A DNA stretch of 35,161 bases from a virus. The position numbers and the translations under genes were made by a program. The notes under the pieces were generated by a model that saw only the letters and a list, made by a program, of their open reading frames with translations, ran no database searches and had not been told where the DNA came from. The DNA lies in the IMG/VR virus record IMGVR_UViG_3300045988_152413. The stretch is one strand, 5' to 3'. This document shows positions 1 to 35,161 of the stretch, piece after piece (within the stretch, counting starts at the first letter, position 1; each line of letters starts with the position of its first letter).

Positions 1-21
1 GTTCCAGAGGGGGGTTATTGA
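1..21. repeat. Terminal direct repeat copy 1 (identical to 35141..35161)
   Basis: gttccagaggggggttattga is found at both window ends. This fits a circular assembly overlap. It lies inside a tandem array, so a repeat-induced contig break is also possible. Confidence 0.8.
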
Positions 22-104
22 GGGGGGTTCCAGAGGGGGGTTCCGCAGGGGGGTTCCAGAGGGGGGTTCCAGAGGGGGGTTCCGCAGGGGGGTTATCGCC
101 CCCC
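1..104. repeat. 13-bp tandem iteron array, part continuing from the window end
   Basis: Units of G6 plus 7 nt read by eye at 9-21, 22-34, 35-47, 48-60, 61-73, 74-86 and 87-99 (GGGGGGTTCCAGA / GGGGGGTTCCGCA / GGGGGGTTATTGA / GGGGGGTTATCGC). The last unit forms GGGGGG-ttatcg-CCCCCC (87-104). Confidence 0.9.
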
Positions 105-2762: not shown

Positions 2763-2915
2763 TTATCCGAAGATGGTCTTGCTTATTGCCGCTATGAACT
2801 CGGGCAGAACCATCGCCCAAAAGGCAAGGAAGAAGATCGTCACGTAAGCCATCAGCTCACTTTCCGCTGCTGCTGCGGTGGTATGATTGCGTTGTTGGTT
2901 AGGCTTCCGCATCAT
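2763..2915 (-). CDS. Small membrane protein (50 aa)
   Basis: Its ATG overlaps the upstream stop (ATGA). C-terminal hydrophobic segment: YVTIFFLAFWAMVLPEFIAAI. Confidence 0.5.
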   Translation of the reverse strand: MMRKPNQQRNHTTAAAAESELMAYVTIFFLAFWAMVLPEFIAAISKTIFG

Positions 2916-3148
2916 CGGTTTTGCTGTGCGTTGGCGCGGAGCCTTTCCTTCGTATAGGCGCATTTTGCGTTCCTCCTTCCGATGCTCTTCATCTCCGATT
3001 CATCGAACGGAATCCTCCACATGACGGAGCTTCCGTCCCCGAAGTCGTAGGCTTGAATCCTCCCAGCCGCGCAACTCTCCCTGATCGTCTTAGCCGATAC
3101 GTTGAGCAGTTTCGCCAGCTCAGGCGGCGTGTAAAGTCGCGTTGCCAT
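2912..3148 (-). CDS. Excisionase/MerR-type HTH DNA-binding protein
   Basis: LYTPPELAKLLNVSAKTIRESCAAGRIQAYDFG matches the HTH_17 / excisionase-family pattern. Confidence 0.65.
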   Translation of the reverse strand: MATRLYTPPELAKLLNVSAKTIRESCAAGRIQAYDFGDGSSVMWRIPFDESEMKSIGRRNAKCAYTKERLRANAQQNR

Positions 3149-3573: not shown

Positions 3574-3984
3574 TCAAAGCGCCGTATTTTTTTCGGAACT
3601 TTTTTTCAGGCGGTTTTCCATTCGCCGCACCGCCTGGCGCTCTGCGTTGTATATGCGCCTTAGCTCGGTGTCGGCTTCCTTGCGCTCAAGCGATTCAAGG
3701 TGGCGCTTGCGCTGCTGCATGTTCTCGATACGGTCTGCAAGGTTGCAGTCGGGGCATTTGCCGCTGTTGTTGTGCGAGTTGAGAACAGCGCCGCAAACAT
3801 CGCATTGCCTGTATTTGGCAAGGGATACGCCCTTGCGGCTTGCCCTCATGCGGATCGCTTCAATCGTTCGATCCGTTCCGCACATGGTGCGGAGCTGCTT
3901 GCGAATCCTGTAAGCTCCCTGATCCCTATAGCGCCTGATAACAGCGTCCTCGGCTCTGCTCCATCGCTGGATTTCGCGCATCAT
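3574..3984 (-). CDS. Hypothetical zinc-ribbon / basic helical protein
   Basis: CDVCG...CPDC four-Cys motif followed by an Arg/Lys-rich helix. ATGA overlap with the upstream gene. Confidence 0.55.
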   Translation of the reverse strand: MMREIQRWSRAEDAVIRRYRDQGAYRIRKQLRTMCGTDRTIEAIRMRASRKGVSLAKYRQCDVCGAVLNSHNNSGKCPDCNLADRIENMQQRKRHLESLERKEADTELRRIYNAERQAVRRMENRLKKSSEKNTAL

Positions 3985-4202
3985 GCGCTCCTCTTGCCGA
4001 TGATCGATAGGAACATCTCCCTAGCGTCATCATCGTGAAGCTCATCGAGCATCAGCTTCAACTCGTCAGCCTTGAGGGTTGACGGGTCGTTGAACCTCGC
4101 CGTTGCCGTGGGACGCGAGATACCGAGGATTCGAGCCATCTTAGTAGGCGTGAATCCGCAATACCGCAGAACGCGCTTCTCGTAATGCTCGCATTCGTCC
4201 AT
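3981..4202 (-). CDS. Cro/antirepressor-position HTH regulator
   Basis: First gene of the leftward operon and divergent from cI. HTH segment: TPTKMARILGISRPTATARFN. AAGGAG RBS. Confidence 0.65.
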   Translation of the reverse strand: MDECEHYEKRVLRYCGFTPTKMARILGISRPTATARFNDPSTLKADELKLMLDELHDDDAREMFLSIIGKRSA

Positions 4203-4234
4203 TCGTACTCCTTTCTATCGTTTGGTTTCCAAAA

Positions 4235-4302
4235 AGCGCCTACGGGTGGAGGGTTGAGCAAGAATCCGCTGGTTAGGAGAAGTGTTTAGTCCCGTAGGCG
4301 CT
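4235..4302 (-). promoter_or_regulatory. 12-bp perfect inverted repeat (AGCGCCTACGGG / CCCGTAGGCGCT) in the early leader; terminator-like on the - strand
   Basis: Arms at 4235-4246 and 4291-4302 with a 44-nt spacer. A T5 run follows on the - strand, just before the cro-like RBS. A third GTTAGGCGCT copy lies at 4313-4322. Confidence 0.5.
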
Positions 4303-4407
4303 TAGCGCCGCCGTTAGGCGCTGAATGAACGGCTGCGGTGTGTTCCAAATCCCCGCTTCCAATACGGCTTGCAGCCGCCCATTCATCGACTAACATTGCT
4401 TAACCTC

Positions 4408-4436
4408 AATATATATTCATCTTTACACTTTGTAAA
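4408..4436 (-). promoter_or_regulatory. Candidate early leftward promoter
   Basis: On the - strand: TTTACA (4436-4431), 17 nt, TATATT (4413-4408), inside the AT-rich cI/cro intergenic region. Confidence 0.4.
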
Positions 4437-4509
4437 TAATTAAATTTTAGTTTTAACTAAATTTTTTTTACGAATAGTAAAATTAGATTGACGTGAAAGG
4501 TAGTTTAAA

Positions 4510-5181
4510 ATGCAATCAATCGACAGCTTTGGGCGCAACTTTCGCGCCATACGTGAAGATAGCAAGCTAAAGCAATACCAGATCGCCGAAAGACTCGGGA
4601 TGACCTCTCCTGCTATCTCTATGTGGGAGAACAAAGGCACTAAGCCGCGCGACAAGAAAACAGTCGAAGCAATATGTGACCTATTCGGCGTGAGCGAAAC
4701 CGATTTGTTCGGGTACTCTGACGGTTACTACGCAAGAACGCGCCTTGGGAATGTGTCTAAGGAGAAGATAAAGCCTGTTGCCGCTTCTGGCTTGCTGCCG
4801 ATCATCGGAGCAGCACACGCTGGCGATCCATGCCCAGCGTTCGAGCTTGACTGCGGCTCGATACCCTGCCCAGAAGAGTATTGCAAAGAGGGGAACTTCT
4901 TCATCAAGATAACGGGCGATTCGATGAACAACGTCCTGACCGATGGATCGTATGCCCTGATAGATACGCACGTTGACGCTCAAAGCGGGGATATTGCGCT
5001 GGTTAAGGTCAACGGCGATGACGCTACGGTCAAGCGCATAAAGAAGATGGACGGATTCATCGTCCTTGAGCCTGACAGCACCAATCCATCGCACAAGCGG
5101 AGGATCATCGATGCAACCGACCAATCATCGCCAGAGGTGAGGATTCTCGGCAAGGTAGTTTACGCCGTCAACAGGCTTTAG
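4510..5181 (+). CDS. cI: cI/LexA-like phage repressor (XRE HTH plus S24 peptidase)
   Basis: N-terminal HTH (KQYQIAERLGMTSPAISMWENK). C-terminal S24 motifs (LPIIGAAHAG, GDSMNN, VKRIKK). Divergent from the cro-like gene. Confidence 0.9.
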   Translation: MQSIDSFGRNFRAIREDSKLKQYQIAERLGMTSPAISMWENKGTKPRDKKTVEAICDLFGVSETDLFGYSDGYYARTRLGNVSKEKIKPVAASGLLPIIGAAHAGDPCPAFELDCGSIPCPEEYCKEGNFFIKITGDSMNNVLTDGSYALIDTHVDAQSGDIALVKVNGDDATVKRIKKMDGFIVLEPDSTNPSHKRRIIDATDQSSPEVRILGKVVYAVNRL

Positions 5182-5194
5182 GGGGTTGATTGAT

Positions 5195-5986
5195 ATGGGA
5201 TTGCTCTCATTCCTTCGCGGATCAAGCAGAAAGGCTTATGCAGGCAAACACGCAAGGCAAGAGAACCATGATCCGGTGCAAGCCGAAATCGAAAGAACGA
5301 AAGAAGCGATAGAGGAACGAAAGCGCAACAGTCCGCGCTTCTGCGTTGAGGATAGCGACAACAGGACGTTCGAGCCGCCTGCACCGTGCGGGTTCTCGTT
5401 CGATAACGTCAATTACCATCATCGAGTGCAAGGCGATAAGGAAACGGGCGAAATCCTGAAAGACGATGTATGGGTCGATCTGCGCGAGCCGAACTACTCC
5501 GCAAACCTTCGCAACATAATCGAGACGCTTGAGGTGCTCGACCTCGCAGAGAACGAGGTTTCAGGATTCCCCTCAGCTGCATACCGTCAGCTCATAGAGG
5601 GCGCATGCGCAAACGGGTACTTCAAGCGAAAAGGTCGCTCGATGCACTATTGCAGCGGCTTTATAAAGGTGCTGCCGCTTACGGCAAGCGGAAAAGTTAA
5701 GAAGCATCCGATCGAATGCAATATGGAGTACAGCGTTCCAACCAATGTCAACGCTTCCCTGGAAGCGGATAGGCACGACAACGTGCTTCTCACGGCAAAG
5801 TACGGCAAGGACGGAAACATAGGCGCTGGCGAGTACATACTATGGGAAGGAAGGGACGGCTGGAGCATCTCTTTCGACCGCAGAAAAGACGGAAGCTACA
5901 GCCTTAAGTCGATCAAGCACAGCCGCATAAACGGGACAAGCGGCTCAAGCGGTTGGAACGCCTTATACAAGCGCGGGAAAGTCTAG
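5195..5986 (+). CDS. Hypothetical 263-aa protein in the lysogeny operon (candidate moron)
   Basis: ATG at 5195, 9 nt after AGGGGG; the track start at 5186 is TTG. It sits 14 nt after the cI stop and ends 2 nt before the int ATG. I recognise no motif in it. Confidence 0.7.
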   Translation: MGLLSFLRGSSRKAYAGKHARQENHDPVQAEIERTKEAIEERKRNSPRFCVEDSDNRTFEPPAPCGFSFDNVNYHHRVQGDKETGEILKDDVWVDLREPNYSANLRNIIETLEVLDLAENEVSGFPSAAYRQLIEGACANGYFKRKGRSMHYCSGFIKVLPLTASGKVKKHPIECNMEYSVPTNVNASLEADRHDNVLLTAKYGKDGNIGAGEYILWEGRDGWSISFDRRKDGSYSLKSIKHSRINGTSGSSGWNALYKRGKV

Positions 5987-5988
5987 CC

Positions 5989-7173
5989 ATGAGAACGAAG
6001 GGCATAGGCGGCATATATGCGATGGAGGATAAGCCGAAGAGCAAATGCCGCAAATGGAAGATAAAGATAAGCGTGGGCATCAACCCAGCAACGGGGAAGT
6101 ACGCCCAAAGGGCGATGACCTTCCACGGAAGCTATACCGAAGCCGTTCAGGCTCGCGAGGATTTCAAGCGCAAGCTGCTCGGGATGAGCCATGCCGAATC
6201 GAAGAAGATGACGCTCAGCCAATGCTGCGAGCTTTGGCTTGATGCCGCCGACCCGTTCCACCAGCTTTCCGAGAATGCGCGGTACTCCCGCCAATGCGCC
6301 GTTAAAGCGGTCTGCCATTGCATCGGAGCCTTGCCCGTGTCGCAGATCACCGACAAGCACGTTGTCGATATGGTCAAAGGCTGGATCGAGGGAAAGACGC
6401 TCAGCGGAAGGCGCTACAGCGGCAACACCATCAACATATACTGCTCTGCGCTCTCTGGCATGATGACGCACTTTGCGATCCCCAAAGGCTACGCAAGCCG
6501 CAACCCATTTGCAGGCTACTCAAGCGTGAAGAAGGATCAGCGAGAGGTCAACGCCATAAGCGTTAAGCAGTTCGAGCGTTTGGCTTACGACATATACGAT
6601 CAGCAAGACCCTCGATGTATGGCTCTGCTGCTTGCCCTGCTCGCTGGTTGCCGCGCAAACGAAGCGTTGGCTGTGCAATGGAAGGACATTCAGGGCGGCT
6701 TCATAACGATCAAGGGAACGAAGAGCAAGGCGGCGAGCGCAACGCTGCCGATGATAGACACGCTCGCCGATATGCTCGCTATGTGGCGCGTTACGCAGGC
6801 GAACAACATGAAGGCGTTGCAGCTGACGCAAACGCCCGAAACGTACGTATCGACCAATCTTATATACGAGCAGGAATCGTACTCAACGCTCAACAGGGCA
6901 TGGAAGAAGCTCGGTTCCGAGCTTGGCTTCGATGATCCCCGCCCCCACGATCTACGCCACTGGTTCGTCTCGTATCTCTGCATGAGCGATATGAACATCA
7001 AGGCTATTCAGCAGATGGCAAGGCACAGCGACATAACGACAACGATGGACATATACGCAAGGATTCACGAGCGCGATTTGGCGGCAGAGACGGCGAAAAT
7101 TCAGCGTTTTGGAGCCGATTCTTCCCAAACTCTTCCCAGCGCAGACGAGGTTAGTAGCGTTTTCAGCGTTTGA
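5989..7173 (+). CDS. int: Tyrosine recombinase / phage integrase
   Basis: Catalytic signature: AGCRANEAL (R), HDLRHWF (HxxR), ARHSDITTTMDIYARI (H..Y). Arm-type N-terminus. The ATG at 5989 is preferred over 5953 because it follows the upstream stop and GGGAAAG. Confidence 0.9.
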   Translation: MRTKGIGGIYAMEDKPKSKCRKWKIKISVGINPATGKYAQRAMTFHGSYTEAVQAREDFKRKLLGMSHAESKKMTLSQCCELWLDAADPFHQLSENARYSRQCAVKAVCHCIGALPVSQITDKHVVDMVKGWIEGKTLSGRRYSGNTINIYCSALSGMMTHFAIPKGYASRNPFAGYSSVKKDQREVNAISVKQFERLAYDIYDQQDPRCMALLLALLAGCRANEALAVQWKDIQGGFITIKGTKSKAASATLPMIDTLADMLAMWRVTQANNMKALQLTQTPETYVSTNLIYEQESYSTLNRAWKKLGSELGFDDPRPHDLRHWFVSYLCMSDMNIKAIQQMARHSDITTTMDIYARIHERDLAAETAKIQRFGADSSQTLPSADEVSSVFSV

Positions 7174-7242
7174 GCTGCGTTTATCAAGTGCGTTGATGAT
7201 TTCGCGCAACTATCGCAAATATAGTTAAATCGGATTCACCAA

Positions 7243-7272
7243 GGGTTCTGACGGTTCTGAGGGTTCTGAGGG
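7243..7272. repeat. Three 9-bp-spaced GGTTCTGA direct repeats
   Basis: Copies at 7244-7251, 7253-7260 and 7262-7269. Candidate integrase arm-type sites. Confidence 0.6.
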
Positions 7273-7309
7273 AACGGCGATTTTGCCGAAAAAGGGAAAA
7301 CCGAGAATG

Positions 7310-7345
7310 AAAAAACGGGAACGATTCTTCCTAGATTCGTTCCCG
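7310..7345 (-). terminator. Rho-independent terminator (- strand)
   Basis: CGGGAACGA...TCGTTCCCG stem (7316-7345), followed on the - strand by T6 (7315-7310). Confidence 0.6.
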
Positions 7346-7501
7346 TCCAGATTCTGCTTTAGCCAATCATTCGCGGCAATCCATCGAACATGACAGCTGC
7401 GTTCCCGTGAGCATCGAGCCAATGGTATTCCGCTATATCGTCAGCTTCCCCGCATTGCTCGCCTTTTCAATCGCTCTGCGTGAACCGCACTCCATCAGCA
7501 A

Positions 7502-7530
7502 TAAAAAAGCGCCCTGCCGAAACCAGGCGC
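7502..7530 (-). terminator. Rho-independent terminator after the endolysin gene
   Basis: On the - strand: GCGCCTG-gtttcgg-CAGGGCGC, followed by TTTTTTAT. It lies 20 nt after the endolysin stop. Confidence 0.75.
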
Positions 7531-7550
7531 AATGACAGTCAATGTTTTAG

Positions 7551-27762: not shown

Positions 27763-28136
27763 CCCTTGCCGCCCTTCTTCGGGTTGAACACGATGCGCGG
27801 AACCTCTTCGGAATCGCCCGAATCATCGATGACCCTGGTTACTCGCCCGTACTCGTTGGGATACTTCCTTTCGAGCAGCCACGCCGCCGCTTTCCAGTCC
27901 CTTTCCTGCGCGTCCCTCATGATGATCTGCGTCAGCTTGTCCTTGAAATCGACCTCGACCTTTTTGACGGCTTCGGAAAATTCGCGCTGATTGGCAGTCT
28001 GCGGATGATGGAGCCACGTGCTAAGCGTCTGAGGGCATACGCCGCAGGCAAGGGCGATGTCCTTGTCCAAAGCGCCGTGCTTCTTGAGCTTCACGGCGAT
28101 CCTTATTACGTCCTTTGTGCATTTCTCTTTAGCCAT
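27759..28136 (-). CDS. terS: Terminase small subunit
   Basis: HTH (LDKDIALACGVCPQTLSTWL). ATGA-coupled to terL. ATG at 28136 is preferred over TTG at 28163. Confidence 0.75.
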   Translation of the reverse strand: MAKEKCTKDVIRIAVKLKKHGALDKDIALACGVCPQTLSTWLHHPQTANQREFSEAVKKVEVDFKDKLTQIIMRDAQERDWKAAAWLLERKYPNEYGRVTRVIDDSGDSEEVPRIVFNPKKGGKG

Positions 28137-28161
28137 GCCGCTAATTCTGCTGGCGTGTCGC

Positions 28162-28191
28162 AAAGCAAAAGAAACCCCGCCGAAGCGGGGT
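28162..28191 (-). terminator. Rho-independent terminator directly upstream of terS
   Basis: On the - strand: ACCCCGC-UUCG-GCGGGGU followed by UUCUUUUGCUUUG. Confidence 0.75.
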
Positions 28192-28234
28192 CTGAATGGT
28201 GGTATTCTAGCGAAGTCTCTTGGTCATTGTGAGA

Positions 28235-28266
28235 CAAAAAGAAAGGGAGCCGATAGCGCGGCTCCC
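28235..28266 (-). terminator. Rho-independent terminator after the 47-aa ORF
   Basis: GGGAGCCG-loop-CGGCTCCC stem, followed on the - strand by TTTCTTTTTG. Confidence 0.7.
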
Positions 28267-28276
28267 TTTCTCATGC

Positions 28277-28420
28277 TTAGGCTTTCTCGCTTGGGCGAAT
28301 CCCGATTATCCTTGCAAGCTTCTTCAAGGCTTCCTCGTAGCTTTTGCCGCTTGCAATTTCCTCGTCAACAAGCCGTTGCATTTCGTCTTTGGTCATTGTG
28401 TTGTATTCTCCTTCACTCAT
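28277..28420 (-). CDS. 47-aa ORF with its own promoter and terminator
   Basis: Translation: MSEGEYNTMTKDEMQRLVDEEIASGKSYEEALKKLARIIGIRPSEKA. AAAGGA RBS 8 nt upstream. Below the track cutoff. Confidence 0.5.
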   Translation of the reverse strand: MSEGEYNTMTKDEMQRLVDEEIASGKSYEEALKKLARIIGIRPSEKA

Positions 28421-28443
28421 GGGAAAGTTCCTTTCTCTTTCCC

Positions 28444-28470
28444 GTTGATATAATTATAACATATATCAAC
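28444..28470 (-). promoter_or_regulatory. Extended -10 promoter bracketed by a 9-bp inverted repeat (operator-like)
   Basis: On the - strand: GTTGATATA-TGTTATAAT-TATATCAAC. The TGnTATAAT element lies at 28461-28453. Confidence 0.55.
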
Positions 28471-28489
28471 GGTATATGCGTTAGAATTA

Positions 28490-28675
28490 TTATTCTTTTT
28501 CTATTTCTCTTCTTATAAGATTCTTGATCACTGTCGAAGCAGGTATATCTTGCGCCTTAAGCCAATTGTAAAGTTCGATCTCGTTAGGCGAGAATTTAAG
28601 GTTGACCTGCTTTGTCTTTTCCCTCTGGTACTTCGCGCTCGCCCTTTTCTGAGCTTCGGTTGCAGTCATTGCCAT
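28490..28675 (-). CDS. Ribbon-helix-helix (Arc/CopG-like) DNA-binding protein
   Basis: KQVNLKFSPNEIELYNWLKAQ..ASTVIKNLIRREIE fits a beta-alpha-alpha pattern. Start is ATG 28675 (alternatives 28669 and 28681). Confidence 0.65.
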   Translation of the reverse strand: MAMTATEAQKRASAKYQREKTKQVNLKFSPNEIELYNWLKAQDIPASTVIKNLIRREIEKE

Positions 28676-30429: not shown

Positions 30430-30762
30430 TCATGCGTCAACAGCCTTCATGATCCGCTCAACGAAGCAGTCTGCATGATCGATCTCTCCGTGGCTGTCGT
30501 AGACCACGAAGAATTTGTTCTCAAGCTCATCGGCAATCTTCAAAAGCTCGTCCCGATCGATCACCCGCTTATTCCAGGCTGCAATCGCCGATTCGTTCGC
30601 CATCTCGGCGGTTTTTGTCTCCATGCCCTGTGACACAACCTGCGCACAGCAGCTACGGCAATTAACAGACGCAACGAACCACGTCTCGCTTATCTGGCTC
30701 GCTTCGTGAAACTCAGGCTCGCTCCCGCAGAACGGGCATGGCTTAAGCTCGATCTCGCTCAT
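30430..30762 (-). CDS. lar: Lar-family restriction alleviation-like protein with a C-terminal extension
   Basis: LKPCPFCGSEPEF...AIAAWNKR matches the Lar-family pattern. ATG at 30762 follows GAAGGAG. Confidence 0.65.
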   Translation of the reverse strand: MSEIELKPCPFCGSEPEFHEASQISETWFVASVNCRSCCAQVVSQGMETKTAEMANESAIAAWNKRVIDRDELLKIADELENKFFVVYDSHGEIDHADCFVERIMKAVDA

Positions 30763-30939
30763 TCTCTCTGCTCCTTCTCGCACTCGCCGAACCATTCGCG
30801 GAAGCTATTCGCGCAGTCGTTGCAGAGGTGTATATTCTTTCTCAGCTTGTAAATCCCCCTCGTCGGATTGCGCAAGAAGAAATCCCTAGCCGTTCGCGAG
30901 ACGTACTCCCCCGCACCTGTCGCACTTGTAAACCCTCAT
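30759..30939 (-). pseudogene. Mini zinc-ribbon gene apparently split by a 1-nt change in a G5 run
   Basis: MRVYKCDRCG(G) is in one frame. EYVSRTARDFFLRNPTRGIYKLRKNIHLCNDCANSFREWFGECEKEQRE is in the +1 frame and ends in an ATGA overlap with lar. The span is 181 nt. Confidence 0.4.
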
Positions 30940-31708: not shown

Positions 31709-31899
31709 GCTTACCGCGCTCCTTGCATTCCTCAATGGCATTGCGAATACTCGCGTAGCATTCATCGCAAGCGTCCATTGCATCGTTGCTTGTGATATAT
31801 CCGTATCTCTTCTCGTATTCAGCGGAAACGGCTACCACCTTGGAGGAGTTTGCCTTTGATTTCGGCTCCGCACATATCGCAAAACGTTTTCCTACTCAT
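31698..31899 (-). pseudogene. Mini zinc-ribbon gene apparently split between two frames
   Basis: MSRKTFCDMCGAEIKGK (its ATG overlaps the thyX stop) is in one frame. (SSK)VVAVSAEYEKRYGYITSNDAMDACDECYASIRNAIEECKERGKHER is in the +1 frame. The span is 202 nt. Confidence 0.35.
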
Positions 31900-32504
31900 C
31901 GCTGCTCCTCCTCGATCATGTGGATGATTTCCATCCATTCGCCGCCTAGCATGTAGAAAGACCGCATCATATCCTCCGCAAGCTCGCGTATCTCCCATTG
32001 CGCCGCCTTATCGCTTCTGGCTTTGTAGAAGCTCATGAACTCGCGCAGGTTCATCGTCACGATGATGTCGGTTTTGGTGGCTTCTGGGAGCACGTAGCGC
32101 GCGTCCTCTGGCTTCATTCCATCGTCTAAAAGCGACTTGTAATACTCCGCGCATCGCCACATCTCGCTCGCGTACTCTTCGAGCATTCGGTCATCGTCCC
32201 TGATCGATGGCGGGATCACGTACCAATCAGCGTCAGTGTTGACCACAACGTAACGCTGGCTCAGCTGGCAGAAGCTTGCCAGGCGGTGCCGCACGAGCTG
32301 GTGGCTGCACGCTCGGCTTATGCCCTCGATGCGCCATGTCACCGACACGTGCTCGAACACGCTCATATGTTCTCGCTTGAAGCAGCGCCTTGCCCTCTTA
32401 GCCTTGTCATCGTCGCTGCCGCCCCTGGCGGTCGATACGCCTGCAACCGAGCCGATCAGCTGCAACGGGAACTCCGTTGTCTTGGCTATGATTCCTGATA
32501 GCAT
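31896..32504 (-). CDS. thyX: FAD-dependent thymidylate synthase ThyX
   Basis: ThyX signature RHRLASFCQLSQRY (RHRxxSxxxxSxR). Confidence 0.9.
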   Translation of the reverse strand: MLSGIIAKTTEFPLQLIGSVAGVSTARGGSDDDKAKRARRCFKREHMSVFEHVSVTWRIEGISRACSHQLVRHRLASFCQLSQRYVVVNTDADWYVIPPSIRDDDRMLEEYASEMWRCAEYYKSLLDDGMKPEDARYVLPEATKTDIIVTMNLREFMSFYKARSDKAAQWEIRELAEDMMRSFYMLGGEWMEIIHMIEEEQR

Positions 32505-32879: not shown

Positions 32880-33317
32880 TTATTTCGCCCCCGATCCTGC
32901 CGAAACGCCCGTTGAGCCGTAGCCGCCACGGTCTGCGCATCCCATCGAATCGACCTCCTCGAACTCGATGTCCTCGGCGTATCTAACGGGCATGAACTGC
33001 GCGATTCGAGTTCCCTGCTCGATCACGGTGTCCCTGATCGCATAGGCAACGAACCCCCAAACATCGCCATCGCCGCTGTAGTCGTTCTCGATGATCCCAA
33101 CGCTGTTAGCCATCATGATCCCGTGCTTTAGGCACGTGGAGGATCGCGGCACCAGAACGCCCATGAAGCCGCTTGGAAGCTTCATCGACACGCCCAGGGG
33201 AATGATCCTCACCTCGCCTTTCCTCAACGTCACCGTCTCGCTTGCCGCCATGTCCCACATAGCGCCGTGGCGCTCTATCCTGCTCGCACCATCGTGGTAC
33301 TTGATCTTTGCCTTCAT
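32880..33317 (-). CDS. dut: dUTP diphosphatase (trimeric dUTPase)
   Basis: Motifs GIIENDYSGDGD, RIAQF and RGGYGSTG. ATG at 33317 follows AAAGGAAG. Confidence 0.9.
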   Translation of the reverse strand: MKAKIKYHDGASRIERHGAMWDMAASETVTLRKGEVRIIPLGVSMKLPSGFMGVLVPRSSTCLKHGIMMANSVGIIENDYSGDGDVWGFVAYAIRDTVIEQGTRIAQFMPVRYAEDIEFEEVDSMGCADRGGYGSTGVSAGSGAK

Positions 33318-33481
33318 CGGCTTCCTTTCTGCCTGCTCCTGCACTCCTTCGTGCAGTAGACGTTGTTCCTGCTTCGCTGCTCGAACTCCCTGCCGCATCC
33401 TCGGCACCTCACGCGCCGTGGGTTCTTGTTCCAATCGAACGGGGCGGCGTGTGGGAAGATGTTCGCGTTGTCGCTGATCAC
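33314..33481 (-). CDS. 55-aa zinc-ribbon protein
   Basis: The GTG start forms a GTGA overlap with the upstream stop. Reads ...RCRGCGREFEQRSRNNVYCTKECRSRQ. Its stop overlaps the dut ATG. Below the track cutoff. Confidence 0.55.
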   Translation of the reverse strand: MISDNANIFPHAAPFDWNKNPRRVRCRGCGREFEQRSRNNVYCTKECRSRQKGSR

Positions 33482-33687
33482 AGCGCATCAGTCCCGCACA
33501 TGTCCCATTGGCTGCTTTGCAGCTCGCTGCTCGAGAGCGGCATGTCGTTGAGCGTGCAGTAGCCTGTCTGCATGTTCGTCCCGCCAACGCACCATGCCCT
33601 AGCGGAATCGCAGTCGATGCAACGTAGCTTCTTCGCCCTCGCTATCCTCTCCCGCTCTTCCTCTTCTGCCTGCGCCGCTGGTGTCAT
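33478..33687 (-). CDS. 69-aa Cys-containing hypothetical protein
   Basis: GAGGAGG RBS, ATGA overlap with the rusA stop, CIDC motif. Confidence 0.55.
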   Translation of the reverse strand: MTPAAQAEEEERERIARAKKLRCIDCDSARAWCVGGTNMQTGYCTLNDMPLSSSELQSSQWDMCGTDAL

Positions 33688-34759: not shown

Positions 34760-35161
34760 CGTCCATGACCTTCCTTCCTCTGATGCTCTTCGTTGGTTCC
34801 TTCATCTTCGAAGCGATTACGTAGCCTTCGAGCTTGTCGGGCGAGAACAGGGTGCCTGGGTTCAGGTTCTGCTGGAACTTGGTTCCCTCCCATTCCTTGC
34901 GCTTGAACCGAACCATCTCGCGCACGTCATCGACCGTGAACCTTCCCTCAAGGCTCGCGATGTACTCGCCGTTCGGGTTGCGCGTGAACTCGACTGGTGC
35001 CACGCCCCTAAGCTCCTCGTTCAAAGCCTTCAAACATTGAAGGGAAAACGATGGATTGGATTCTCTTTTCTTTTCTTGTCTTATCTTTTCTTGTCTTATC
35101 TTTTCTTTTCTTAGGTTCTGTAGGGGGGTTCCAGAGGGGGGTTCCAGAGGGGGGTTATTGA
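34734..35161 (-). CDS. Replisome-organizer-like initiator, C-terminal part (continuation of 1..394)
   Basis: The frame is open from the window end through the repeats into ORF 34734..35033. FTVDDVREMVRFKRKEWEGTKFQQNLNPGTLFSPDKLEGYV resembles the conserved phage replisome-organizer C-terminal domain (Phg_2220_C-like, from memory). Confidence 0.6.
   Translation of the reverse strand, partial: NNPPLEPPSGTPLQNLRKEKIRQEKIRQEKKRESNPSFSLQCLKALNEELRGVAPVEFTRNPNGEYIASLEGRFTVDDVREMVRFKRKEWEGTKFQQNLNPGTLFSPDKLEGYVIASKMKEPTKSIRGRKVMDDELASYAS
35061..35120. repeat. Polypyrimidine (+ strand) AT-rich tract with a 15-bp tandem repeat
   Basis: TTTTCTTGTCTTATC at 35071-35085 and again at 35086-35100, with degenerate copies on both sides. 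It directly abuts the iterons. Confidence 0.85.
35123..35161. repeat. 13-bp tandem iteron array, first three units
   Basis: Units at 35123-35135, 35136-35148 and 35149-35161. After removing the 21-nt duplicate the circular array has 9 units. Confidence 0.9.
35141..35161. repeat. Terminal direct repeat copy 2 (identical to 1..21)
   Basis: Same 21-mer as positions 1..21. Confidence 0.8.

What the first reader, a model, noticed from the sequence alone, without database searches (positions are those of the whole stretch)
5195..5986. Unknown 263-aa gene wedged between cI and integrase: candidate lysogen-expressed exclusion or defence gene
It is the only + strand gene other than cI and int. It starts 14 nt after the cI stop with its own AGGGGG RBS and ends 2 nt before the int ATG, so it should be co-expressed with the repressor in lysogens. 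This is the classic slot for superinfection-exclusion, abortive-infection or lysogenic-conversion genes. I recognise no motif in it, no clear TM segment and no nucleotide-binding loop. Its C-terminal third is Gly/Ser/Lys-rich beta-like sequence. The cI plus orf263 block looks AT-richer than the genome by eye (not computed).
Basis: inference. Interest (0 to 1): 0.65.

Follow-up and report, generated by a model that had tools for sequence, protein, structure and literature searches.

The report
Swappable unknown gene in phage repressor operon
A real, conserved gene of unknown family and apparently new fold sits between the repressor and integrase of a gut Coriobacteriia phage; it is exchanged as a one-gene cassette between near-identical phages and is most likely a membrane-tethered protein that lysogens make to fend off other phages, which is untested.

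Summary
ORF 5195-5986 (+, 263 aa) starts 14 nt after the cI stop behind AGGGGG and ends 2 nt before the int ATG. No terminator-like site separates the three genes. The protein matches nothing in Pfam, PHROGs, NCBIfam, PADLOC or PDB sequences. A confident AlphaFold model (pLDDT 82.6, pTM 0.73) has no Foldseek relative in the PDB.

It is not an orphan. An exhaustive search finds a small family of about 30 clusters, 20-35% identical. Shared features are an N-terminal MGLF(D/S)xFKK motif, a variable linker and a conserved alpha/beta core.

Five divergent lineages keep the order cI(HTH+S24) → member → tyrosine integrase. Other members lie on a complete 4.3-kb plasmid, an integrative island, beside an endolysin, and beside host genes next to one phage-like ORF.

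In phages with 96-100% identical flanks, the slot holds a second allele that is only 36% identical, with breakpoints at the gene borders. Within allele A dN/dS is 0.21. Several copies are frameshifted.

Best reading, at about 45%: a lysogen-expressed, membrane-tethered exclusion or abortive-infection protein. The function is inferred, not shown. The AT-richness claim is not significant.

The parts
4203..4509 (.). Divergent regulatory region between the cro-like gene (3981-4202, -) and cI. It is AT-rich (GC 0.417), has overlapping palindromes at 4429-4470, and is the presumed site of the promoter driving cI-orf263-int.
   Evidence: The promoter for the + strand operon is inferred; the consensus scan gave only weak matches.
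4510..5181 (+). cI-type repressor (223 aa) with an N-terminal HTH_3 and a C-terminal Peptidase_S24 autocleavage domain. It is the first gene of the operon.
   Evidence: PF01381 4.5e-9; PF00717 1e-20. The HTH part (about 4450-4750) exists as two alleles among relatives.
5180..5185 (+). AGGGGG ribosome-binding site of orf263. It overlaps the cI stop codon and lies 9 nt before the ATG.
5166..5986 (+). Exchangeable one-gene cassette. In relatives L009/L010/L011/L013, nucleotide identity to the window falls from 96-100% to 40-60% from the last ~5 codons of cI to 2 nt before the int ATG, then returns to 86-99%.
5195..5986 (+). orf263 (263 aa plus stop), a member of an unannotated protein family. This copy is allele A.
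5195..5230 (+). N-terminal MGLLSFLRGSSR motif (family consensus MGLF[D/S]xFKK), a putative amphipathic membrane-targeting sequence. It is followed by a basic, low-confidence linker to about residue 24.
   Evidence: The resemblance to PspA/Vipp1 helix alpha0 'MGLFDRxxRV' comes from PMC13051332. One member (P0021) has a true TM helix here instead.
5273..5926 (+). Globular alpha/beta core (residues 27-244): helix 27-45, nine or ten long antiparallel strands, and three helices at 100-140.
   Evidence: pLDDT above 90 over most of the core. There is no PDB structural neighbour.
5384..5452 (+). Most conserved family motifs: (E)PCGFxFxNV (P64-V72, with C65 and F67 invariant) and the D-x-E-T-G-E hairpin turn (T84 invariant; G85 and E86 at least 90% conserved). 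dN/dS here is 0.03.
5675..5710 (+). PLTASGKVKKHP loop (family consensus EPLTxTGKVKKYP). It is conserved in most members but replaced by IPPEPYGDPPRCP in allele B.
5989..7173 (+). Tyrosine integrase (394 aa), the last gene of the operon. It is 98-99% identical in all relatives, whichever orf263 allele they carry.
7174..7550 (.). Intergenic region between int and the convergent endolysin gene, the presumed attP. It contains a 9-nt repeat, AGGGTTCTG x3.4, at 7242-7272.
   Evidence: The attP assignment is inferred.

Best explanation
orf263 is an accessory (non-core) gene of a temperate siphovirus of gut Coriobacteriia. It is transcribed with the cI repressor and integrase, so it should be made continuously in lysogens.

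The protein has a short N-terminal amphipathic motif that tethers it to the cytoplasmic face of the membrane. A flexible basic linker follows, then a globular alpha/beta domain of apparently new fold.

I propose that it protects the lysogen, and hence the prophage, against superinfecting phages. It would act as a single protein at the membrane, either blocking productive genome entry or sensing an incoming phage component and aborting the infection. For a cytoplasmic peripheral protein the second seems somewhat more likely. The two deeply diverged alleles that swap between otherwise identical phages would then be alternative specificities.

Shown: gene reality, operon architecture, family membership, conserved synteny, carriage on several kinds of mobile or likely mobile DNA, cassette exchange and purifying selection.

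Inferred: membrane tethering, expression in lysogens, and the anti-phage function itself.
For: - Operon: the intergenic gaps are 14 nt and 2 nt, orf263 has its own RBS, and no terminator-like site lies between cI and int.
- Synteny: the order cI(HTH+S24) → member → tyrosine int recurs in five lineages. The members share 23-36% identity and the repressors of three of them only 31-42% with the window's. These are the window type, allele B, L005, L003 and L012.
- Other contexts: a complete 4.3-kb circular RCR/Mob/ParE plasmid (L004), an integrative island in Ca. Aphodovivens (L015), beside an endolysin gene (L001), and beside host genes next to one phage-like ORF in an Actinomycetes MAG (L014). 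This is how cargo genes behave.
- Cassette exchange: flanks are 96-100% identical while the gene is 36% identical at protein level, with breakpoints at the gene borders. The orf alleles and the cI-HTH alleles occur in all four combinations. The gene's function is therefore not co-adapted to a particular repressor specificity or integrase.
- A separate excisionase-like gene exists at 2912-3148.
- Membrane association: the conserved N-terminus MGLF(D/S)xFKK begins like the lipid-binding helix alpha0 of PspA/Vipp1 (PMC13051332). It is hydrophobic and basic like the MinE membrane-targeting sequence (residues 2-12; L3, L4, F6, F7; PMC5473585). In member P0021 it is replaced by a bona fide TM helix (maximum KD 3.11).
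- Selection: dN/dS is 0.21 overall and 0.03 in the core motifs. Several frameshifted or truncated copies exist, as expected for a useful but dispensable gene.
- Precedents: lambda cI-rexAB and Gordonia phage CarolAnn 45-44-43 are defence genes co-transcribed with the repressor, and Charlie encodes a single prophage-expressed exclusion protein (PMC6426606).
Against: - There is no direct evidence of function or of expression.
- Neither the window protein nor any of the 26 family members tested matches PADLOC, Pfam or PHROGs.
- The slot is not a hotspot with varied cargo. All seven IMG/VR phages with this integrase carry allele A or B. That would also fit a gene with a phage-specific role.
- Within allele A selection is purifying, with no region of dN/dS above 1.
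- Classical Sie proteins are integral membrane proteins or lipoproteins, and this one is neither.
- The amphipathic moment of the short N-terminal motif varies between members (0.13-0.72).
Confidence: 0.45

Rival explanations
1. Lysogenic-conversion or fitness factor unrelated to phage defence. In this reading a membrane-associated protein made in lysogens alters host physiology, for example envelope stress handling, transport, signalling or competitiveness in the gut.
For: The architecture and cargo-like distribution are the same as above. The membrane-targeting-type N-terminus resembles the start of the stress protein PspA/Vipp1. The gene is very common in human-gut metagenomes: clusters of 39 and 391 sequence variants, on contigs up to 326 kb.
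Against: A host-directed function gives no obvious reason for two 36%-identical alleles to replace each other precisely in otherwise identical phages. No domain is shared with any known host pathway.
Confidence: 0.2
2. Accessory component of the lysogeny switch or of integration/excision. It would sit in the slot that ImmA holds in immR-immA-int operons. Possible roles are a modulator of cI autocleavage, an anti-repressor control, or an integrase cofactor or directionality factor.
For: The position between repressor and integrase is conserved in five lineages. Every relative with this integrase keeps a copy, intact or frameshifted.
Against: - There is no Peptidase_M78/HExxH motif or any DNA-binding domain.
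- cI already carries its own S24 domain.
- The orf alleles reassort freely with both cI-HTH alleles and with a 98%-identical int.
- Members occur without cI or an adjacent int, on a plasmid and on an island.
- A separate excisionase-like gene is present.
- Frameshifted copies persist in several independent samples.
Confidence: 0.15
3. Maintenance or competition function of mobile elements: an entry-exclusion, stability or anti-defence protein that benefits phages, plasmids and islands alike.
For: Members are present on three kinds of mobile element, including a 4.3-kb plasmid where it is one of only two cargo ORFs, next to a ParE toxin-antitoxin pair.
Against: There is no similarity to known partition, TA, entry-exclusion or anti-defence families. 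Most occurrences are in prophage repressor operons.
Confidence: 0.12
4. Decaying or non-functional ORF kept only by linkage between cI and int.
For: Frameshifted, truncated and fused copies exist: L008/L031, L013/L021, L023 and P0005-P0009.
Against: dN/dS is 0.21, and 0.03 in the motifs. The family is conserved at 20-35% identity with invariant residues. All five AlphaFold models are confident and concordant. The gene has its own RBS.
Confidence: 0.03

Closest known systems
Lambda cI-rexA-rexB and Gordonia phage CarolAnn 45-44-43 (repressor-cotranscribed exclusion systems)
   Same: The gene lies immediately downstream of, and in an operon with, the immunity repressor, so it should be expressed in lysogens. 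The proposed role is defence against other phages at the membrane (PMC6426606).
   Different: This is one gene, not two. There is no DUF4747 (RexA-like) domain and no multi-pass membrane partner. Integrase follows in the same operon.
Sie2009 (lactococcal P335 phages) and Ltp (S. thermophilus TP-J34) superinfection-exclusion proteins
   Same: Both are single accessory genes in the lysogeny module of Gram-positive temperate siphophages and act at the membrane. The Ltp paper (PMC3952083) was listed but not read; the locations are from my own knowledge.
   Different: Those proteins are integral membrane proteins or surface lipoproteins. orf263 has no TM segment, signal peptide or lipobox, and its globular domain is predicted to be cytoplasmic. 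There is no sequence or PHROG relationship.
ImmA (COG2856 metalloprotease) in immR-immA-int operons of ICEBs1 and Gram-positive phages
   Same: The gene order is identical: repressor, then the middle gene, then integrase, on one strand (from my own knowledge of ICEBs1).
   Different: There is no HExxH or Peptidase_M78 domain. The repressor here has its own S24 autocleavage domain. The alleles assort independently of repressor type.
PdpSau / AbiP (prophage or plasmid single-protein abortive-infection proteins with an N-terminal membrane anchor)
   Same: Size is similar (PdpSau is 278 aa). An N-terminal membrane-binding element is followed by a cytoplasmic domain, the genes are prophage accessory genes, and one relative (L001) also lies beside an amidase endolysin gene (PMC10127798).
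   Different: PdpSau has a true TM helix and an OB-fold. orf263 has only a short amphipathic motif and a different, unmatched fold. There is no PADLOC Abi hit.
PspA/Vipp1 helix alpha0 and the MinE N-terminal membrane-targeting sequence
   Same: The N-terminus begins MGLF(D/S) followed by basic residues. This resembles the conserved MGLFDRxxRV start of alpha0 and the hydrophobic/basic MinE residues 2-12.
   Different: The resemblance covers only the first ~10 residues. The rest of the protein is unrelated to ESCRT-III/PspA or MinE (no Pfam hit).

Membership tests
Known anti-phage defence proteins (PADLOC-DB 2.0) | Significant HMM match to a defence-system component | tested here: not met
   There were 0 hits for the window protein at E up to 10. 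Among 26 family members there were only isolated, non-recurrent hits at E of 0.005 or worse.
RexA/RexB-type repressor-linked exclusion | Gene co-transcribed with the immunity repressor | tested here: inconclusive
   The architecture fits: a 14-nt gap, its own RBS and no terminator. Transcription itself cannot be tested with these tools.
RexA/RexB-type repressor-linked exclusion | RexA-like DUF4747 protein plus a multi-pass membrane partner (RexB-like) | tested here: not met
   No Pfam hit. No TM protein is encoded between cI and int.
ImmA/IrrE anti-repressor metalloprotease (Peptidase_M78, COG2856) | HExxH zinc-protease domain, partnered with a repressor that lacks its own cleavage domain | tested here: not met
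   There is no Peptidase_M78 hit and no HExxH motif. cI carries Peptidase_S24.
Sie2009/Ltp-type superinfection exclusion proteins | Transmembrane segment or lipoprotein signal that exposes the protein at the cell surface | tested here: not met
   The maximum 19-residue hydropathy is 0.66. There is no signal or lipobox; the N-terminus is MGLLSFLRGSSRK.
AbiP/PdpSau-like | N-terminal TM helix plus a cytoplasmic OB-fold nucleic-acid-binding domain | tested here: not met
   There is no TM helix and no OB-fold or other PDB neighbour by Foldseek.
Excisionase / recombination directionality factor | Small (about 60-120 aa) HTH or winged-helix DNA-binding protein next to int | tested here: not met
   The protein is 263 aa with no DNA-binding domain. 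A separate 78-aa excisionase-like gene lies at 2912-3148 (phrog_66).
The unnamed family defined here (P0010, P0013-P0035, P0037, P0038; BFVD A0A8S5N3L1, A0A8S5T0U8 and A0A8S5LTZ0 as likely members by fold only) | End-to-end homology, with the N-terminal MG[LIF][LF] motif and the PCGFxFxNV, D-x-E-T-G-E, PLTxxGKxKKxP and Y-x-K-D-G-x-I-G-K motifs | tested here: met
   phmmer E-values run from 1e-26 to 1e-3 for about 28 distant representatives. The alignment has C65, F67, T84 and P172 invariant. Three BFVD structural hits have E from 5e-5 to 2e-4.
N-terminal amphipathic membrane-targeting sequences (PspA/Vipp1 alpha0, MinE MTS) | Short N-terminal hydrophobic/basic segment that binds lipid | not testable with these tools
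   The sequence resemblance is present, and one member has a TM helix in its place. Lipid binding needs an experiment.

The most novel reading that the evidence does not exclude
orf263 founds a new single-protein anti-phage system of previously unseen fold. It would be tethered to the inner face of the membrane by a PspA/MinE-like N-terminal motif. Its target specificity would be set by interchangeable alleles (A and B, 36% identical) that recombine as exact one-gene cassettes between the conserved cI C-terminus and the int start. That would make it a second, 'heterotypic' immunity determinant that assorts independently of the repressor's own specificity in gut Coriobacteriia phages.
Probability: 0.3. 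Interest if true: 0.65.

Novelty: new variant of a known kind. Interest (0 to 1): 0.45.

Why it matters
Repressor-linked accessory genes are a productive source of new anti-phage mechanisms; RexAB, CarolAnn 43/44 and the cluster N mycobacteriophage systems are examples. Almost nothing is known for phages of gut Coriobacteriia (Eggerthellaceae).

This gene offers three things. The family is absent from every curated library. The predicted fold is confident and has no PDB neighbour. There is also a natural experiment: two alleles in isogenic phage backbones, plus frameshifted copies. That makes a reciprocal exclusion test straightforward.

If it proves to be a defence determinant, it would add a new single-gene system and a tidy example of modular specificity exchange. 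If not, it still marks a widespread lysogen-expressed protein of the human gut virome, with hundreds of sequence variants.

Tried and rejected
- **Curated libraries.** Pfam, PHROGs, NCBIfam and PADLOC gave nothing for the window protein. Pfam, PHROGs and PADLOC also gave nothing for all 26 aligned members.
- **PDB by sequence.** Neither the single sequence nor the family profile found anything.
- **PDB by structure.** Foldseek with two models gave a best E of 0.23-0.34 and TM below 0.25. The top hits (TamA, VDAC, p32) reflect only long antiparallel sheets.
- **Annotated phage and plasmid collections.** tblastn against INPHARED phages with three different members found nothing, and neither did PLSDB plasmids. 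Megablast of the structural region against phages also found nothing. No annotated relative exists.
- **Automatic locus searches.** The search for related loci failed with the full family alignment. With a sub-alignment it found nothing in genome or metagenome contigs. A hand-made degenerate DNA pattern for CGFxFx[ND]V-11aa-TGE did work.
- **Distant members.** P0014, P0016, P0017 and P0022 were not found in IMG/VR, so their contexts remain unknown.
- **MucBP adhesin hit.** The 1919-aa P0036 shares only a 'DKVTGEIIKDD' hairpin-like repeat. I treat this as local chance similarity.
- **Catalytic Cys idea.** C65 is invariant, but there is no invariant His/Asp partner, so I rejected it.
- **P-loop idea.** The PLTASGKVKK loop does not fit Walker A and is absent in allele B, so I rejected it.
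- **Conserved partner gene.** The neighbours differ between loci: SHOCT, DUF2283, and unknown 115-aa and 126-aa ORFs. There is none.
- **Horizontal acquisition from composition.** Not significant.

Full report
**1. The observation**

The ORF is exactly as described.
- The cI stop TAG is at 5179-5181 and AGGGGG at 5180-5185.
- The ATG is at 5195, the stop at 5984-5986, and the int ATG at 5989.
- The upstream gene (4510-5181) is a classical HTH_3 plus Peptidase_S24 repressor. The downstream gene (5989-7173) is a tyrosine integrase.
- No terminator-like site lies on the + strand between cI and the end of int. With gaps of 14 nt and 2 nt, the three genes look like one operon.

The window itself is a complete temperate siphovirus genome of about 35 kb.
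- It was assembled as a circle. The ends overlap by 21 nt inside a 13-nt repeat array.
- The - strand carries these modules:
  - Early genes: cro-like, excisionase-like, RecT and SSB.
  - Replication and nucleotide genes: DnaC-like, RusA, dUTPase, thymidylate synthase and a Lar-like gene.
  - Packaging, tail and lysis genes.
- The host is very probably an Eggerthellaceae bacterium. A scaffold of Eggerthella sp. CAG:209 carries the same cI-orf-int block, with a 97% identical orf263.

- The cI+orf263 block is only slightly below the genome GC (0.527 against 0.559, 17th-19th percentile).
- A possible fourth + strand ORF (28057-28518) could not be excluded.

**2. What the protein is**

It matches no curated family or solved structure by sequence.
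- Nothing in Pfam, PHROGs, NCBIfam or PADLOC.
- Nothing in PDB sequences.
- Nothing in annotated phage or plasmid records.

The indexed protein search found only near-identical copies plus one 27% relative. An exhaustive phmmer pass over 1.84 billion representatives found 31 hits at E up to 1e-3. Most are proteins of 226-343 aa and 20-35% identity, and they align end to end.

The family signature has three parts:
- An N-terminus that almost always reads M-G-[LIF]-[LF] followed by basic residues (consensus MGLF[D/S]xFKK).
- A variable, low-complexity linker.
- A core with the motifs (E)PCGFxFxNV, D-x-E-T-G-E, N..K, WP, EPLTxTGKVKKYP and YLKDGxIGKG, and a C-terminal GW..Y. C65, F67, T84 and P172 are invariant.

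None of the 26 aligned members hits Pfam, PHROGs or PADLOC. The only source annotation found is 'hypothetical protein'.

AlphaFold2 with 11 sequences gives a confident, reproducible model.
- Mean pLDDT is 82.6 and pTM 0.73. The five models range from 80.1 to 82.6.
- Residues 1-24 are disordered. Helix 27-45 follows, then nine or ten long antiparallel strands and three helices at 100-140.
- Foldseek finds no PDB neighbour for either model (best E 0.23-0.34, TM below 0.25).
- The only significant structural hits are three uncharacterised gut-virome 'Siphoviridae sp.' proteins in BFVD. These are presumably family members.
- On present evidence the fold is new, or at least unrepresented in the PDB.

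**3. Context across relatives**

Thirty loci besides the window carry a family member. Counting lineages rather than copies gives this picture.
- **cI(HTH+S24) → member → tyrosine integrase, on one strand**, in five lineages:

| Lineage | Repressor identity to window | Member identity to window | Extra genes in the operon |
|---|---|---|---|
| Window type (allele A) | 75-98% | 86-97% | none |
| Allele B | 75-98% | 36% | none |
| L005 | 42% | 29% | 45-aa SHOCT gene between cI and member |
| L003 | 31% | 27% | DUF2283 gene before int |
| L012 | 33% | 23% | 115-aa gene between cI and member |

  The L012 prophage abuts the host CCA-adding enzyme gene.
- **L004** is a complete 4.3-kb circular plasmid with a 30-nt terminal overlap. 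Its gene order is Rep, member, a 126-aa ORF, a ParE toxin-antitoxin pair, and Mob_Pre.
- **L015** (Ca. Aphodovivens avistercoris, Coriobacteriia) is an integrative island. An integrase lies 3.7 kb away and there is no cI.
- **L001** lies beside an Amidase_3 endolysin.
- **L014** lies beside host genes, next to one phage-like ORF, in an Actinomycetes MAG.

No partner gene is conserved. So the member is always on or beside DNA that looks mobile. It is most often wired to the repressor, yet it can exist without repressor or integrase.

**4. The cassette**

The most telling result is the mosaic among close relatives.
- In L009, L010, L011 and L013 the DNA is 96-100% identical to the window through the C-terminal half of cI.
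- Identity drops to 40-60% from about 5166, the last five codons of cI, to 5986.
- It returns to 86-99% two bases before the int ATG.
- The replacement gene (allele B, 247 aa) is a true homologue. It keeps MGLL…, PCGFDFCNV, DKATGE, EPNY and WP, but is only 36% identical and has lost the PLTxxGKxKK loop.

The cI HTH region (about 4450-4750) also has two alleles, 58% against 98% identical. The four combinations of HTH allele and orf allele all occur. The gene is therefore exchanged as an exact one-gene module, independently of immunity type, and with an essentially invariant integrase (98-99%).

Within allele A, 11 unique coding sequences give dN/dS of 0.21, falling to 0.03 across the CGF/TGE motifs. 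No segment exceeds 0.7.

Several copies are damaged. The same frameshift recurs in independent samples (L008 = L031; L013 = L021), and other copies are truncated or fused (L023, P0005-P0009). The gene is useful enough to be conserved but is dispensable.

**5. Membrane association**

No member except one has a hydrophobic segment.
- The N-terminal motif is hydrophobic and basic. It begins like the lipid-binding helix alpha0 of PspA/Vipp1, 'MGLFDRxxRV' (PMC13051332). It also resembles the MinE membrane-targeting sequence, residues 2-12 with L3, L4, F6 and F7 (PMC5473585).
- The exception, P0021, replaces the motif with a genuine TM helix, MNWMFAVLFILVVVIVAMFVAG, followed by basic residues.
- This substitution is the best available evidence that the N-terminus serves to place the protein at the membrane, with the globular domain in the cytoplasm.
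- This is an inference from sequence. Lipid binding is untested, and the helical moment of the short motif varies among members.

**6. Interpretation**

The data exclude a chance ORF. They make a core lysogeny function unlikely (regulator of cI, integrase cofactor or RDF), for these reasons:
- There is no protease or DNA-binding domain.
- cI has its own S24 domain.
- An excisionase-like gene exists elsewhere.
- The alleles reassort freely with cI type and with int.
- Members occur without either partner.
- Frameshifted copies persist.

The pattern fits known prophage accessory genes that act against other phages. Those genes are wired to the repressor, carried as cargo on several kinds of mobile element, exchanged as precise cassettes, located at the membrane, dispensable, and unannotated.

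The clearest precedents are lambda cI-rexAB and Gordonia phage CarolAnn 45-44-43, both co-transcribed with the repressor, and the single exclusion protein of mycobacteriophage Charlie (PMC6426606). PdpSau/AbiP are single Abi proteins with an N-terminal membrane anchor (PMC10127798).

orf263 is not a member of any of these families, because each defining domain was tested and not found. I therefore commit, at about 45%, to a lysogen-expressed, membrane-tethered, single-protein exclusion or abortive-infection function in which alleles A and B are alternative specificities.

Whether it blocks genome entry or aborts infection cannot be decided here. The cytoplasmic, peripheral topology leans towards sensing or abortive action.

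The rivals:

| Rival | Confidence | Main point |
|---|---|---|
| Non-defence conversion or fitness function | about 20% | Same architecture; very common in the gut |
| Lysogeny or integration accessory | about 15% | Kept alive because every relative with this integrase retains the slot occupant |
| General mobile-element maintenance or competition | about 12% | Found on three kinds of element |
| Junk ORF | about 3% | Contradicted by selection and fold |

**7. Novelty and score**

An unknown gene in a lysogeny module is a familiar kind of object, and no function is shown, so this is not a surprising finding for a specialist. It is, however, a solid lead:
- a real family absent from all curated resources;
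- an unmatched fold;
- a clean natural allele swap;
- an understudied host group.

I rate it a new variant of a known kind, with interest 0.45.

Noticed in passing
window 1-96 and 35122-35156: There is a tandem array of a 13-nt unit, GGGGGGTTCCAGA. About 7 copies lie at the start of the window and 2.7 at the end. It gives 7 matches where 0.6 are expected by chance. The window ends overlap by 21 nt inside it, so the circular assembly was cut within an iteron-like array next to the DnaC-like loader gene. It is a candidate replication origin.
   Followed up: partly
window 4450-4750 (cI N-terminal HTH) compared with L002, L007, L008, L010, L011, L013: The HTH half of cI exists as two alleles among close relatives, about 58% against 98% nucleotide identity. 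The switch back to 93-100% identity lies near 4750-4850, the HTH/S24 domain boundary. This is immunity-specificity swapping, and it assorts independently of the orf263 alleles.
   Followed up: partly
window 7242-7272: A 9-nt repeat, AGGGTTCTG x3.4, lies in the int-endolysin intergenic region, the presumed attP. These are possible arm-type integrase binding sites. No tRNA gene was found anywhere in the window.
   Followed up: no
window 28057-28518 (+): A 153-aa + strand ORF lies in a gap of about 600 bp with no long - strand ORF, upstream of the terminase small subunit gene. It has no PHROG match.
   Followed up: partly
window 30430-30795 (-), 31896-32504 (-), 32880-33587 (-): The phage carries a Lar-like restriction-alleviation gene (phrog_599), a thymidylate synthase and a dUTPase-domain protein. 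The first is a candidate anti-restriction function.
   Followed up: no
L008/L031, L013/L021, L023; proteins P0005-P0009: Damaged copies of the gene recur. The same frameshift appears in independent samples, after about aa 229 in allele A and about aa 200 in allele B. There are also truncations, and one deletion (P0008) fuses orf263 at about aa 155 in frame to integrase at about aa 25.
   Followed up: partly
L001 2027-3058 (protein P0010): After the homologous region ends, the called ORF runs on into a second 'MGLLSLVRGNARRLL' segment. This looks like the N-terminus of another family member, possibly the remnant of a tandem copy.
   Followed up: no
window 4234-4246 / 4291-4303 and 4313-4336 / 4371-4394: There is a perfect 13-nt inverted repeat and a 24-nt, 83% complementary inverted repeat between the cro-like gene and the AT-rich promoter region. 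They may be operators or a leader structure.
   Followed up: no
protein P0036 (1919 aa, not in the window): A MucBP-type surface adhesin hits orf263 residues 69-94 three times through its repeated '…VEIDKVTGEIIKDDGW…' hairpin. I treated this as local similarity of a beta-hairpin turn, not as homology.
   Followed up: partly
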